Shown here piece after piece: positions 39,001 to 42,000 of a stretch of 64,000 nucleotides of DNA (positions within the stretch are counted from its first letter, which is position 1; each line of letters opens with the position of its first letter). Source of the DNA: Escherichia coli (lineage in GTDB: Bacteria; Pseudomonadota; Gammaproteobacteria; Enterobacterales; Enterobacteriaceae); the NCBI RefSeq assembly GCF_016026235.1, contig NZ_CP065613.1, one strand, 5' to 3'. Position numbers: made by a program.

Positions 39001-42000
39001 CGTTGGCCTCAGCGATTAAGCAGTCAGGGCAGCATGAAATTTTTTCTCTGTCCTCGCCATTACGATCGCTCCACACCAGTATATGCGTGTGATATTCGCC
39101 ATGTTTTTCGCAATATCCGCGACCTTCACGCATCAGGCAGGAACGATAAGGCCATGGCTTTTCGCCCTTCTGAGCAAATGCAATCTCTGCCCGTAACTCA
39201 TCCATTCGCGCCTGTAGTCTTTTTTGTTGTTCACGCAGGTTAAACGTCATCATCGCTGTCACCTCAGAATGTCAGTTTGTCACTGGATTTACCGAATTTG
39301 TCAGACATGGCTCCCAGGCCAGCCAGGACATCGACCTGTCGCTGTCGCCCACCTCCGGGAGCGGCTGGCTGTTGCCAGAAGTCTTCGAAGTGACGATCGG
39401 GTCCAAAGAACGTCGCTGCCTGCTTCACGAACTGTGTGCCGTTATTTCCTGTGGCACGTATCCAGGCGGCATACCGCTTCACGCCATCAAGCATGGTCTC
39501 CGGTTTTATTCCCTCCCTGATACGGGCTTTCCAGGCTTTGAAGGCTGCGGATTTTGAGTTACCACCAGCACGTTTTGGATATTCCTGCCAGGCCTGTTCA
39601 AATTCCGGTGAATATTCCTGTCGGGCAGAACGCGCTGGTGCAGACGCGTCAGCGGATGCGCCAATAGTGTTTTTACTCTCTGTAGTATTCTCTGAAGTAA
39701 TCTCTGTTGTATTCTCTGTAAGATCGAAATTGGTTTTCCCTTCTCCGCGGCGAGGGGTTTCCCGTGTCCGCGGTGAAGGCTTTCCCTCCTCCGCGAAATT
39801 GGGTTTTACAGTTTCCCGAAAACGGGTTTCCCCATTTCGGGAAAACTGATTGTTTTCATTGATAATTTCATTAAGGCGCTCACAATCTATACGGTAGAAC
39901 ATTTTGTGCTCAAGACGCTTGTTGGTTTCAACCAAAATGCCTCTGGACACAAGATGCTTACGCGCTACAGCCTGTTGTTCAAATGTAAGTCCGGTTTCGT
40001 GTTGTATCTCTTCACGCGTTTTATGTACGCCTTCCGCTGCATGTGCTTTATCCTGCCAGTAAAAAATCTGACCAAAGAAAATAACAGCGTGCGGACTTCC
40101 CATGTATTTAACGAGCCCAGGGTAATAAGCAACCGGATGTCCAAAATCGAGCAGAAGATCAGACGGACGCATAGCCACCTCCCAGGCGTTTAAACATTTT
40201 TCCGGACTGAAACGCCACCAGCGGATAACTCAGGGTATGAGTACGTCCCTGAACCTGGCAGACAACCTTCTGGCTTTCTGTATTGACCAGGCAAACCCGC
40301 AGAACGTGGCCGTTGCTGGTGGTGAACCACTGCCCCACTCGGGGGCAACGGTTGTATCGGTGATACAGGGAATTAACGATGCGGCGAATCATGGACGCAC
40401 CTCCTTGTCAGAACCATTCAGCCTGGAATCAACAAGTGCAGCACCAAAAACAGCATCACCTACACGGTCGTACAGTTTGCTGGCCAGCGGAGATTCAACA
40501 GCCTTAAGCATTGGGTAAAGCTGGCTTGTCCAGATTTGATGGATTTCACGCAAATGCAGGTATACGCCTCTGGCGTTTTGTGCGACAGATGACATGTCAG
40601 CCGCACCAGCTCCTGATAAGCTCCTCTCCATCTGGTTAAAGGCATTGATGTATGCCTCTTTGAACCGGGCGGCACGTTTACCAGTGAAGCCCATAGCAAG
40701 GAAGGCGAAGCCGTCGCGGGTGATTTGGTAGCAGGGAAGTTTGCGAGTACCGCCGTTGGGCTGGCGTACCAAAATTGATGTCTCCGCAAAATTGCGGGCA
40801 CAAAACTCTGGAGAACAATCCAAAATGCGGATCTTTTTCAGAACATCGTCATGACGTTTAGAGAAGAAGTTGGCAACAGCCAGGGATGAAGTAACAGCCT
40901 GACCATCAACGATGGCAATTTCAGGTTGAGTGAGGGTTGGGATCGTAGCCATGATGGCAGCCTCTTTGGTGATTTTTAATAACTCACCACCAAAGCTTCT
41001 CACGGCAATAGGTGGTGAGACGTACAGGGGTGAGAAACCGGTCACCAAAGAACCCGGCCCAACCGAAGTTGGCCCTGCACGCCCCACCATAATTTGGGCG
41101 TAATGCTGCTCATGACACAAAAAAACCGCAAGAGCGCGGTTGTGCGCTTTGGTGAATTCCGGGTTCTCACGCCCGGCACCCGCTTTATAAGGTGCGGAGA
41201 CAGTGTAACGTCCCGAAATTGCAGAATCAATATCAAAATGTTGTAGCTGTGGACAACGCGAAGCCTTGTTGTTATTGTTTACAACAAGAACCAGAGGAAG
41301 CTTTAAATGCCATCCAGACTGTATAAACAGTTCATCCGTCATCTCGGTGAATCTGAATACATACGAATCCGCATATGGGAAGTGGAGCCTGCTGTATTGG
41401 GTAGCCAGCACAACTACAAATACAGCATGGCTTATGTCGTTGATGGCATGTGTGTGATGCGTTACGACAACGAACGGGGTAAAGGCGATCACAAACACAT
41501 TGGTAGTCAGGAAGTCAGCACCAGCTTTGTCACCATTGAACAACTGCTCGCTGATTTTCTGGCTGACGTTGAATCCATCCGCAGAGGTATCTGACATGAG
41601 AACCGTAACAATCCGAATCGAGTCAATGGATAATTTCACGGCTGATGTGCTGTCTGCGTTCCAGGAAGCAGCTACCGGAGCAAAAGCAACCAGAGAAAAC
41701 GTTATTTCATTTCCTGACTGGCAAATGATGCATAAGGTACTGACACCAAAACGCATGGACATTCTGATGGCAATGACTGGTGCCGGAGAAATGTCCATCC
41801 GAAAAATTGCAGCCCTGGTTGGACGTGATGTAAAAAGCGTGCATACTGACGTGACCGCACTCATCAGCAACGGTTTACTGGAAAAAAGCGAGCGCGGAAC
41901 GTCATTCCCGTATGACGACATCCACTTTGATTTTACGCTGGGCAAGGCGGCGTAATTTTTCGTATATACCGTGCCGTCATTCCGGCGGCGCTTCACACTC

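What the first reader, a model, noticed from the sequence alone, without database searches (positions are those of the whole stretch)
40953..41160. A structured leader upstream of rha copy 2: strong terminator, mutually exclusive hairpins at the SD, and a 9-mer used four times
On the minus-strand RNA a canonical terminator (41117-41141, with 7 U) is followed by CTCACCACC...CTTTGGTGGTGAG...TCACCAAAGAGGctgccatcATG. GGTGGTGAG can pair with the upstream CTCACCACC (41011-41019). Alternatively, its overlapping CTTTGGTG can pair with CACCAAAG, which abuts or overlaps the AAGAGG SD (40961-40972). The word CTTTGGTGA or its complement occurs four times in 190 bp (40964, 40988, 41042 and 41147). This looks like an attenuator or translational switch, or a set of protein-binding sites, gating rha2 and the replication genes in a phage where I find no N-like gene.
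Basis: seen in the sequence. Interest (0 to 1): 0.5.

Follow-up and report, generated by a model that had tools for sequence, protein, structure and literature searches.

The report
C4/IsrK antisense-RNA cassette before rha2
The "structured leader" is an unannotated copy of a well-known phage immunity device, the phage P1-type C4 antisense RNA with its IsrK partner RNA, which most likely blocks the ribosome site of the downstream Rha gene; it is an ordinary member of a known family.

Summary
The features are real, but one count is wrong. The exact 9-mer occurs three times in the region, not four; the 40988 copy matches 8 of 9.

On the minus strand, Rfam finds two families above their gathering scores:
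- C4 antisense RNA (RF01695) at 41094-41008, 83.4 bits (cut-off 45).
- IsrK (RF01394) at 41195-41119, 63.6 bits (cut-off 50).

The repeated word is the C4 loop b' (CUUUGGUGA) and its two targets:
- b1, inside IsrK.
- b2, which overlaps the rha2 Shine-Dalgarno sequence.

The layout aligns point for point with the annotated phage P1 immI region. Across 38 distinct cassettes (26 b' and 17 a' alleles), the loops covary with both target sets.

Most likely mechanism: C4 is cut from terminator read-through transcripts and blocks rha2 translation. IsrK, which carries a1/b1, masks or titrates C4.

I found no description of it in the papers I could read.

Verdict: already known kind, low interest.

The parts
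41202..41230 (-). Sigma-70-like promoter of the cassette: -35 TTGATT at 41230-41225, a 17-nt spacer, -10 TACACT at 41207-41202. The likely start site is near 41195.
   Evidence: It aligns with the annotated P1 promoter P1c4 (former P51b). A TTGnnn-17/18-TAnnnT motif ends exactly 31 nt before a1 in 35 of 38 representative cassettes and 28 nt before it in one more. Similarity to other phages starts at about 41233. The generic promoter scan did not list it. Activity was not tested.
41119..41195 (-). IsrK-type small RNA, the a1/b1-bearing 5' part of the transcript. It is the same element as the Rfam c4-a1b1 motif.
   Evidence: Rfam RF01394 scores 63.6 bits against a gathering score of 50, E 1.6e-12, over the full model length. 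RF03163 c4-a1b1 overlaps it at 41208-41156 with 24.1 bits, below its gathering score.
41164..41170 (-). a1 site GUGAGAA, in the loop of the second IsrK hairpin. It is complementary to a' of C4.
   Evidence: Position and complementarity are conserved in 37 of 38 cassette types. It pairs with a' in the full-length MFE.
41147..41155 (-). b1 site UCACCAAAG, single-stranded in IsrK. It is complementary to b' of C4.
   Evidence: Conserved as a complement of at least 6 nt in 31 of 38 types. Duplex energy -12.6 kcal/mol.
41117..41141 (-). Intrinsic terminator of IsrK: stem 41141-41124, U run 41125-41119. Read-through is needed to make C4 and the rha2 mRNA.
   Evidence: Terminator scan. A hairpin plus T run sits at this position in all 38 representatives, including P1. 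It is part of the isrK model.
41008..41094 (-). C4 antisense RNA gene (extent of the Rfam match). The predicted mature RNA is 41088-41011 (78 nt), with 5' GGU after AAUUAU and 3' ...CCACC, by analogy with the annotated P1 c4 ends.
   Evidence: RF01695 scores 83.4 bits against a gathering score of 45, E 3.9e-16. MFE is -44.2 kcal/mol, z -4.2. Of 27 pairs, 97.3% are paired across 38 loci and 9 pairs change on both sides.
41042..41051 (-). b' recognition loop (U)CUUUGGUGA, in the 12-nt loop of C4 hairpin 2.
   Evidence: There are 26 different b' alleles in homologues, each matched by its own b1 and b2.
41030..41036 (-). a' recognition segment UUCUCAC, in the single-stranded junction of C4.
   Evidence: There are 17 different a' alleles, each matched by its own a1 and a2.
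41011..41019 (-). C4 3' tail CUCACCACC. It is the 3' strand of the closing stem and can alternatively pair with the anti-tail.
40997..41003 (-). a2 target GUGAGAA in the rha2 leader.
   Evidence: Its own-locus complement is present in 38 of 38 types, against 3% for cross-locus pairs. Duplex energy -9.6 kcal/mol.
40983..40991 (-). Anti-tail GGUGGUGAG. It is complementary to the C4 tail and overlaps the 5' arm of the hairpin that sequesters the SD.
   Evidence: 89.8% of cells are paired, against 30-56% for slid controls. At least 7 Watson-Crick pairs of 9 occur in all 95 loci. Compensatory changes occur in the P1 clade, L094 and L246.
40988..40995 (-). Cis copy of b' (CUUUGGUG, 8 of 9).
   Evidence: The leader hairpin folds at -27.9 kcal/mol, z -5.9. 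This exact structure is only weakly conserved column by column.
40963..40972 (-). b2 target UCACCAAAG(A). It overlaps the Shine-Dalgarno AAGAGG (40966-40961), 10-11 nt before the ATG.
   Evidence: The b':b2 duplex is 10 bp at -14.7 kcal/mol. Its own-locus complement is present in 34 of 38 types, against 6% for cross-locus pairs. The geometry matches P1 b2/icd.
40389..40952 (-). rha2, the controlled gene (187 aa, Rha family). It is followed without gaps by a 77-aa ORF and the replication genes.
   Evidence: Pfam Phage_pRha, 94.6 bits. ORF layout. PGAP annotates a longer CDS that starts at 41342 and runs across both RNA genes.

Best explanation
Region 41230-40950 (minus strand) is one portable cassette of about 280 bp of the phage P1/P7 immI type.

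A promoter-like site at the position of the annotated P1 c4 promoter would start a transcript near 41195. That transcript first contains IsrK, which carries sites a1 and b1 and ends at the intrinsic terminator. Transcripts that read through contain the C4 antisense RNA, a leader with sites a2 and b2, and then rha2. In P1, C4 is excised at its 5' end by host RNase P.

The C4 loop b' and junction a' pair with b2 and a2. The b':b2 duplex covers part of the Shine-Dalgarno sequence, so rha2 is not translated. Polarity may also lower expression of the tightly packed downstream replication genes.

IsrK carries the same a1/b1 words as the target. It therefore pairs with C4: in cis on the read-through RNA, and in trans as the short terminated RNA. 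It acts as an anti-antisense that relieves repression.

Shown here:
- family membership;
- the fold;
- the positions of all the sites;
- their covariation across many cassettes;
- the colinearity with P1.

Inferred, not tested: promoter activity, processing, the translation block, the decoy role of IsrK, and any effect on the replication genes.
For: - Rfam hits are above gathering score for C4 (83.4 against 45) and isrK (63.6 against 50).
- The region aligns colinearly with the annotated P1 immI region in the order promoter P1c4, a1, b1, terminator-like hairpin, c4, a2, b2, SD, start codon. The spacings are nearly the same.
- The C4 fold is supported by covariation: 97.3% of cells paired, against 37-50% for slid controls, and 9 pairs with changes on both sides.
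- Thirty-eight distinct cassette types carry 26 b' and 17 a' alleles. A complement of at least 6 nt lies at the expected place for a1 in 37/38, b1 in 31/38, a2 in 38/38 and b2 in 34/38. The rate is 3-6% when C4 and flanks come from different types.
- In the column test, a1b1:a'b' pairs at 77% against 25-47% for slid controls.
- b2 abuts or overlaps the SD, with the ATG about 10-12 nt downstream. The b':b2 duplex is -14.7 kcal/mol and a':a2 is -9.6 kcal/mol.
- The full-length MFE pairs a1b1 with a'b'. This matches 'structure A' demonstrated for Gifsy-1 isrK-orf45 (PMC4825925).
- The terminator is present in all 38 representatives. A promoter motif lies at a conserved position in 36 of 38.
- Genes downstream of such cassettes are Rha, ORF6N, Bro-N/P22_AR_C and Icd types.
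- The published mechanism of C4 (RNase P processing at GGU; the b' loop occludes the RBS; a' gives specificity) is summarised in PMC5320573 and in the P1 GenBank annotation.
Against: - There are no expression data for this prophage.
- Promoter activity, read-through, processing and repression are all inferred from sequence and homology.
- Rha2 has not been shown to be an antirepressor.
- In Gifsy-1, the only lambdoid example studied, the authors explain control by alternative mRNA structures and translational coupling from 'orf45'. They do not invoke C4-type repression at the downstream RBS. Constitutive expression of the C4-like RNA did not counteract IsrK toxicity there.
- The leader can hide its own SD and AUG in a -27.9 kcal/mol hairpin without C4. 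The share of repression that C4 itself contributes is therefore unknown.
- The column-wise test of a'b':a2b2 was blurred by alignment register: 63% paired against 59% at slide +1.
Confidence: 0.85

Rival explanations
1. Gifsy-1 IsrK model as published. The read-through isrK-'orf45'-rha2 mRNA is locked in a translationally silent fold. Short IsrK binds it in trans and opens it, and ribosomes starting at the AUG inside the C4 5' strand (41090) reach rha2 by coupling. In this window they would do so as an in-frame fusion. C4 itself is not the repressor.
For: - Experimental work on the homologous Gifsy-1 locus supports it (PMC4825925).
- The window's full-length MFE reproduces the a1b1:a'b' helix.
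- The AUG in AAUUAUGG is present in all cassettes examined, although it lies inside the search pattern used to collect them. In the window it is in frame with rha2 and the frame is open.
Against: - The frame from that AUG is not conserved. It is fused in frame in 11 types, open in another frame in 8, stopped internally in 14, and overlaps the start as ATGA in 1.
- The a2/b2 sites at the downstream RBS covary with C4 in 34-38 of 38 types. This model does not use those sites.
- In the Gifsy-1 data, mutations in a' derepress 100- to 200-fold. Double mutants with a1 do not return to the basal level. That fits loss of a repressor better.
Confidence: 0.35
2. P4-type control of transcription. C4 pairs with a1/b1 and a2/b2 on nascent RNA and causes premature termination, either at the IsrK terminator or by Rho in the untranslated leader. 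What is mainly gated is transcription of rha2 and the replication genes, as CI RNA does in satellite phage P4.
For: - The intrinsic terminator between b1 and C4 is conserved in all 38 representatives.
- rha2, the 77-aa ORF and the O-like, DnaC-like and helicase genes follow without gaps.
- IsrK in trans raised read-through transcription 8-fold in Gifsy-1.
- The authors of the Gifsy-1 paper themselves drew the analogy with P4.
Against: - b2 always sits on the SD. That placement points to a translational target.
- In Gifsy-1 the translational effect (139-fold) far exceeds the transcriptional effect (8-fold).
- There is no direct evidence here for Rho sites or for termination.
Confidence: 0.25
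3. Classical cis-acting attenuator or translational switch without any trans-acting RNA. Four strands are involved: the C4 5' strand, the tail, the anti-tail and the b2/SD segment. They form mutually exclusive hairpins that are set by a ribosome on a leader peptide, either the 22-codon ORF 41113-41042 or the frame from 41090.
For: - The tail:anti-tail helix is conserved with compensatory changes.
- That helix excludes both the C4 closing stem and the SD hairpin.
- The enforced alternative fold leaves most of the SD unpaired, at -22.1 against -27.9 kcal/mol.
Against: - No leader-peptide frame is conserved.
- It does not explain why the loop words covary with a1/b1 upstream and a2/b2 downstream.
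- It does not explain why the RNA matches a processed trans-acting family.
Confidence: 0.15
4. The region is coding or binds protein. Either it encodes an N-terminal extension of Rha, as PGAP annotates (317 aa from 41342), or the repeated words are operators for a DNA-binding protein.
For: The frame is open from 42251 to 40389. PGAP and the mEp460 record annotate long CDSs across it.
Against: - Two Rfam RNA families match above gathering score.
- Loop lengths differ by numbers of bases that are not multiples of three, and frames differ among homologues.
- The words occur as reverse complements that covary, with G-U tolerated. That is an RNA-pairing signature, not an operator signature.
- The Rha domain starts at residue 21 of the short protein.
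Confidence: 0.03

Closest known systems
immI operon of phages P1 and P7 (c4 antisense RNA - icd - ant; Rfam RF01695, clan CL00128)
   Same: - The order and spacing of elements match: promoter, a1, b1, terminator-like hairpin, C4, a2, b2 on the SD, start codon.
- The C4 fold is the same.
- The 5' flank and 5' strand are the same: UUACGCCCnAAUUAU|GGUGGGGCGUG.
- The recognition words differ, but they are changed coherently at all three places.
   Different: - The controlled gene is a Rha-family protein rather than icd-ant.
- The cassette sits in the early-right region of a lambdoid prophage, upstream of the replication genes, not in a plasmid prophage.
- b' is 9-10 nt here, against 7-8 nt in P1.
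- There is no C1 operator or second promoter.
isrK-orf45(STnc1160)-anrP locus of Salmonella prophage Gifsy-1 (Rfam RF01394; PMC4825925)
   Same: - An IsrK sRNA ends at a leaky intrinsic terminator.
- Read-through enters a C4-like RNA region, then an antirepressor-type gene.
- The middle of IsrK (a1/b1) pairs with the a'/b' region.
   Different: - The downstream gene is of the Rha type. I did not examine the Gifsy-1 sequence itself.
- Here the 'orf45' frame is fused in frame to rha2 instead of ending at an AUGA overlap.
- The genomic position differs: next to a Q-like gene in Gifsy-1, before the replication genes here.
Immunity system of satellite phage P4 (CI RNA with seqA/seqB/seqC)
   Same: A processed small RNA, made from the same transcript as its targets, has complementary sites both upstream and downstream of itself. 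The analogy is drawn in PMC4825925.
   Different: P4 acts by premature transcription termination of the replication operon. Here the downstream site sits on an SD, which points to translational control. I did no sequence comparison with P4.
sar antisense RNA controlling ant in phage P22
   Same: An antisense RNA keeps an antirepressor-type gene untranslated (from my own knowledge; not tested here).
   Different: sar is transcribed from the opposite strand of its target (true cis-antisense). It has no C4 fold and no duplicated target sets.
C4-like sRNAs of Acinetobacter baumannii (PMC5320573)
   Same: The same Rfam C4 motif, processed at a GGW site from longer transcripts.
   Different: They are chromosomal multi-copy sRNAs with unknown targets, not a cassette in front of an antirepressor gene.

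Membership tests
C4 antisense RNA (RF01695; P1/P7 immI type) | Match to the family covariance model above its gathering score | tested here: met
   83.4 bits against a gathering score of 45, E 3.9e-16, model positions 1-87 of 87, window 41094-41008 minus strand.
C4 antisense RNA (RF01695; P1/P7 immI type) | Fold: a long closing stem that encloses two hairpins, with a single-stranded junction | tested here: met
   The MFE of 41098-41005 gives exactly this fold, -44.2 kcal/mol, z -4.2. Across 38 loci, 97.3% of cells are paired and 9 pairs change on both sides. Slid controls give 37-50%.
C4 antisense RNA (RF01695; P1/P7 immI type) | Loop b' and junction a' are complementary to sites b2 and a2 in the leader of the next gene, with b2 at the ribosome-binding site | tested here: met
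   a':a2 pairs 7 bp (41036-41030 with 41003-40997). b':b2 pairs 10 bp (41051-41042 with 40972-40963) and overlaps SD 40966-40961. The sites covary in 38/38 and 34/38 cassette types.
C4 antisense RNA (RF01695; P1/P7 immI type) | A second copy of the targets (a1, b1) upstream of C4 in the same transcript | tested here: met
   a1 at 41170-41164 and b1 at 41155-41147. They covary in 37/38 and 31/38 types. The column test gives 77% paired against 25-47%.
C4 antisense RNA (RF01695; P1/P7 immI type) | Made from a precursor and processed by RNase P to about 77 nt | not testable with these tools
   Only the sequence hallmarks are present. They are the same AAUUAU|GGU 5' junction and ...CCACC 3' end as the annotated P1 c4 ends, and the GGW processing motif (PMC5320573).
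C4 antisense RNA (RF01695; P1/P7 immI type) | Represses synthesis of an antirepressor and so takes part in immunity | not testable with these tools
   The downstream gene is Rha family. Related cassettes precede ORF6N, Bro-N/P22_AR_C, Rha and Icd genes. No functional data exist.
IsrK sRNA (RF01394) | Match to the family covariance model above its gathering score | tested here: met
   63.6 bits against a gathering score of 50, E 1.6e-12, model positions 1-77 of 77, window 41195-41119.
IsrK sRNA (RF01394) | Own promoter and a Rho-independent terminator that lets part of the transcripts through | tested here: inconclusive
   A promoter-like site and the terminator are present at conserved positions. 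Activity and read-through cannot be measured here.
IsrK sRNA (RF01394) | The middle of IsrK pairs with the RNA region downstream of the terminator (helix b-I of PMC4825925) | tested here: met
   The full-length MFE pairs a1b1 with a'b'. The pairing covaries across loci.
IsrK sRNA (RF01394) | A short upstream ORF (orf45) is translationally coupled to the downstream gene | tested here: not met
   In the window, the frame from AUG 41090 is fused in frame to rha2 rather than ending at its start. The frame relation is not conserved among 34 cassette types.
c4-a1b1 motif (RF03163) | Match above the gathering score | tested here: not met
   24.1 bits against a gathering score of 46.7 at 41208-41156. 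The same element passes the isrK model.
Ribosome-mediated attenuator (leader-peptide type) | A conserved leader-peptide frame whose translation selects between the hairpins | tested here: not met
   No frame is conserved across the cassette types.

The most novel reading that the evidence does not exclude
The helix between the last nine bases of C4 (CUCACCACC, 41019-41011) and the 'anti-tail' in the leader (GGUGGUGAG, 40991-40983) may be a functional and so far undescribed part of all C4 cassettes.

The four strands would be:
- the C4 5' strand;
- the tail;
- the anti-tail;
- the b2/SD segment.

Together they would form an attenuator-like switch. The switch would couple folding and excision of the antisense RNA to exposure of its own target and of the ribosome site. 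When C4 folds, the anti-tail closes the SD hairpin. When C4 is held open, by IsrK pairing or by a ribosome, the tail captures the anti-tail, a2 is displayed in a loop, and the SD is freed.

The helix is kept in 95 loci, from P1-like to lambdoid to N15-like phages, with compensatory changes in three lineages. I found no description of it in the papers I could read. The original P1 papers were not available to me.
Probability: 0.3. Interest if true: 0.45.

Novelty: already known. Interest (0 to 1): 0.22.

Why it matters
For genome annotation, the region should be labelled as two RNA genes (IsrK/a1b1 and C4) plus a 187-aa Rha. It should not be a 317-aa CDS that runs across them.

For biology, it places this E. 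coli prophage among the many phages that keep an antirepressor-type gene silent with a P1-type antisense RNA. Such cassettes occur in 141 phage records and 824 of 5,426 complete E. coli genomes.

The comparison also ties together three descriptions that sit apart in the databases: P1 a1/b1, Rfam c4-a1b1 and Salmonella IsrK.

The a' and b' alleles reassort freely: 26 b' and 17 a' alleles in 38 combinations. This pattern is expected if they set immunity specificity, as between P1 and P7.

The only possibly new point is the conserved tail:anti-tail helix.

Tried and rejected
- A gapped pattern scan of viral contigs (GCCGG..CCGGT..AACCC) returned a server error.
- A looser scan (CTTCGG N5 GCCGG N8-13 CCGGT) returned 120 loci. 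These were essentially chance matches in G+C-rich metagenomic contigs, and none had a convincing C4 fold. I did not use them.
- Column-wise pair counts were uninformative for the terminator: 57% paired, no better than controls. For a'b':a2b2 the result was blurred: 63% against 59% at slide +1. MAFFT puts loops of different length out of register. I replaced these tests with per-sequence and alignment-free tests.
- The window's own SD-sequestering hairpin is only weakly conserved as a fixed structure: 64.5% paired against 31-52%. Most loci nevertheless fold b2/SD into some local hairpin.
- The original P1 papers (Citron & Schuster 1992; the P1 genome paper) are not held in the library. I took the P1 facts from the GenBank annotation and from secondary sources.
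- Rejected readings: a leader-peptide attenuator, an N-terminal extension of Rha, and protein operators. The reasons are given under the rival explanations.
- The extra exact 9-mer at 52791-52799 has no a-type word nearby, and one such copy is expected by chance.
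Full report
**Observation**

- a hairpin AACCGCG/TGCGGTT (41141-41124) with a run of seven T, which the terminator scan also finds;
- CTCACCACC (41019-41011);
- CTTTGGTGGTGAG (40995-40983);
- TCACCAAAG (40972-40964), which abuts AAGAGG (40966-40961);
- the ATG at 40952.

One count is wrong. The exact 9-mer or its complement occurs three times here (40964, 41042, 41147). The copy at 40988 matches 8 of 9. With 0.59 copies expected in the whole 64 kb, and 0 of 100 shuffles reaching the observed total of four, the cluster is not chance.

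A second word set was overlooked. GTGAGAA occurs at 41170-41164 and 41003-40997, and its complement occurs at 41036-41030.

**Identity**

A scan against Rfam gives two full-length matches above the curated thresholds on the minus strand:
- C4 antisense RNA (RF01695) at 41094-41008: 83.4 bits, gathering score 45, E 3.9e-16.
- IsrK (RF01394) at 41195-41119: 63.6 bits, gathering score 50.

The related model c4-a1b1 (RF03163) overlaps IsrK at 24.1 bits, below its threshold.

The copy of the 9-mer at 41050-41042 lies in the 12-nt loop of C4 hairpin 2. Folded alone, the C4 segment gives exactly the family fold (-44.2 kcal/mol, z -4.2).

**Comparison with P1**

The window is 100% identical to a prophage in E. 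coli CFSAN029787. Similar DNA occurs in 141 phage records and in 824 of 5,426 complete E. coli genomes.

The GenBank record of phage P1 annotates, in this order: promoter P1c4, a1, b1, c4 (77 nt), a2, b2 ("repression of icd, ant translation") and icd. The window aligns colinearly with that stretch, including the promoter hexamers and a terminator-like hairpin between b1 and c4.

| Spacing | Window | P1 |
|---|---|---|
| a1 to b1 | 8 nt | 7 nt |
| a2 to b2 | 24 nt | 22 nt |
| b2 to ATG | 11 nt | 10 nt |

The recognition words differ between P1 and the window, but they differ coherently at all three places:

| Word | P1 | Window |
|---|---|---|
| a1/a2 with a' | TTGACAG with CTGTCAA | GTGAGAA with TTCTCAC |
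| b1/b2 with b' | GTTAGTG with CACTAAC | TCACCAAAG with CTTTGGTGA |

**Covariation**

A scan of viral contigs with the conserved 5' strand of C4 gave about 120 loci. These comprise 92 distinct sequences and 38 distinct combinations of 26 b' and 17 a' alleles. I then asked whether a complement of at least 6 nt lies at the expected place:

| Site | Own cassette | C4 and flanks from different types |
|---|---|---|
| a1 | 37/38 | 5.3% |
| b1 | 31/38 | 5.9% |
| a2 | 38/38 | 3.2% |
| b2 | 34/38 | 6.1% |

Where a b2 site and a nearby ATG were found, b2 ends about 10-12 nt before the start codon and runs into the SD.

On an alignment of 38 loci:
- The C4 fold is 97.3% paired, against 37-50% for slid controls, and 9 pairs change on both sides.
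- The a1b1:a'b' pairing is 77% paired, against 25-47%.
- The column test for a'b':a2b2 and the one for the terminator are spoiled by loop-length differences. However, every representative has a hairpin plus T run between b1 and C4.
- In 35 of 38 representatives a TTGnnn-17/18-TAnnnT motif ends exactly 31 nt before a1, and in one more it ends 28 nt before. The flanks upstream of it are unrelated, so the promoter belongs to the cassette.

**Coding potential**

PGAP annotates a 317-aa Rha CDS that starts at window 41342 and runs across both RNA genes. The mEp460 record does the same. The frame that starts at the AUG inside the C4 5' strand varies among types:
- fused in frame to the next gene in 11 types, including the window;
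- open in another frame in 8;
- stopped internally in 14;
- overlapping the start as ATGA in 1.

Loop lengths also vary by numbers of bases that are not multiples of three. The region is therefore RNA, and rha2 most likely starts at 40952. That gives a 187-aa protein whose Phage_pRha domain begins at residue 21.

Genes behind other cassettes are of the Rha, ORF6N, Bro-N plus P22 antirepressor C-terminal, and Icd types, plus a 76-aa protein of unknown kind.

**Mechanism**

From the published P1 work, as summarised in PMC5320573 and in the P1 record, C4 is cut from a longer transcript by RNase P at a GGU motif. Its b' loop occludes the ribosome-binding site, and a' adds specificity.

The window has:
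- the same AAUUAU|GGU junction and ...CCACC end;
- a 10-bp b':b2 duplex (-14.7 kcal/mol) that covers AAGA of the SD;
- a 7-bp a':a2 duplex (-9.6 kcal/mol).

I therefore infer that C4 blocks rha2 translation.

IsrK carries a1 in a hairpin loop and b1 single-stranded, so it is complementary to C4 and not to the leader. The full-length MFE pairs a1b1 with a'b'. This is the helix "b-I" shown by mutation and native gels for Gifsy-1 (PMC4825925). In that study:
- IsrK in trans raised translation of the downstream antirepressor 139-fold.
- An RNA of about 80 nt (STnc1160) was processed from the read-through transcript.
- The authors compared the locus with P4 CI RNA.

Their a' mutations derepress strongly, and the double mutants do not return to the basal level. 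I read this as support for C4 being a repressor at a2/b2 and IsrK an anti-antisense. This is my inference, not their conclusion.

rha2 is followed without gaps by a 77-aa ORF, an O-like gene, a DnaC-like gene and a helicase gene. Polarity on replication genes is possible but untested.

The leader alone folds into a hairpin that hides b2, the SD and the AUG (-27.9 kcal/mol, z -5.9). As a fixed structure it is weakly conserved, but most loci fold b2/SD into some local hairpin.

The pairing CUCACCACC:GGUGGUGAG is better supported:
- It is 89.8% paired across 38 loci, against 30-56% for slid controls.
- At least 7 Watson-Crick pairs of 9 are present in all 95 loci at a conserved offset.
- Compensatory changes occur in three lineages:
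  - the P1 clade (CCUGCCACC:GGUAGCAGG, three adjacent pairs);
  - L094 (CUCGCC:GGCGAG);
  - an N15-like Enterobacter phage (GCUACCACC:GGUGGUAGC, three pairs).

This helix excludes both the C4 closing stem and the leader hairpin. Enforced, it costs about 6 kcal/mol relative to the leader hairpin and leaves most of the SD unpaired. Its role is unknown. I put forward a four-strand switch as the most novel reading.

**Verdict**

The finding is a real, structured, non-random element, but it belongs to a curated and experimentally studied family. The attenuator and protein-site readings are not supported. Novelty: already known. Interest is low. The tail:anti-tail helix and the annotation error are the only points worth passing on.

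Noticed in passing
window 40389-41342 (-); L001 4479-5432; L123 3677-4828: PGAP's Rha CDS (WP_004978630.1, 317 aa) and mEp460 gp41 run across the IsrK and C4 RNA genes. These are probably over-extended CDS calls. A 620-aa open frame (40389-42251) even crosses the antisense of the neighbouring toxin-antitoxin genes.
   Followed up: partly
window 41307-41955 (+): A TumE toxin gene (41307-41594) and an HVO_A0114-family gene (start about 41593, end 41955) form a toxin-antitoxin-like pair. The pair lies divergently just upstream of the cassette promoter. Similarity to other phages begins only at about 41233, so this pair looks like a lineage-specific insertion.
   Followed up: partly
window 41119-41208 (-): The Rfam families isrK (RF01394, no clan) and c4-a1b1 (RF03163, clan CL00128) match the same element. 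The same overlap occurs in L245, where c4-a1b1 is also below its gathering score. The two families appear to describe one RNA.
   Followed up: partly
L003-L122 (viral contigs): The a' and b' alleles reassort. For example, the window's a' occurs with a different b' in L036, and the window's b' occurs with a different a' in L009. In all, 26 b' and 17 a' alleles form 38 combinations. This suggests modular exchange of specificity determinants.
   Followed up: partly
L015, L020, L030, L244 and relatives: In one group of cassettes (Xuanwuvirus, family Peduoviridae), the controlled gene is a small 75-76-aa protein (MANRKQ...), with no family assigned here. It may be a counterpart of P1 Icd.
   Followed up: no
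window 59811-60118 (-), 33705-33894 (-), 34058-34130 (-), 55832-55874 (+): Other Rfam matches above gathering score are MicL sRNA, STnc100 sRNA, a tRNA and ES036. MicL and ES036 suggest that the right end of the window is host chromosome.
   Followed up: no
window 42173-42922 (-): The first Rha-family gene (rha1, 249 aa) has no C4 or IsrK match in front of it. Only rha2 carries the cassette.
   Followed up: partly
PMC4825925, Table 1D: In Gifsy-1, mutations in the a' segment of 'orf45' (C159U, C162U) raise basal expression 100- to 200-fold. Combining them with the matching IsrK mutations does not restore the low level. This fits a C4-type repressor acting at the downstream a2/b2 sites, which that paper does not discuss.
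   Followed up: partly
window 52791-52799: A fourth exact copy of the 9-mer lies far from the cassette and has no a-type word nearby. One such copy is consistent with chance.
   Followed up: yes
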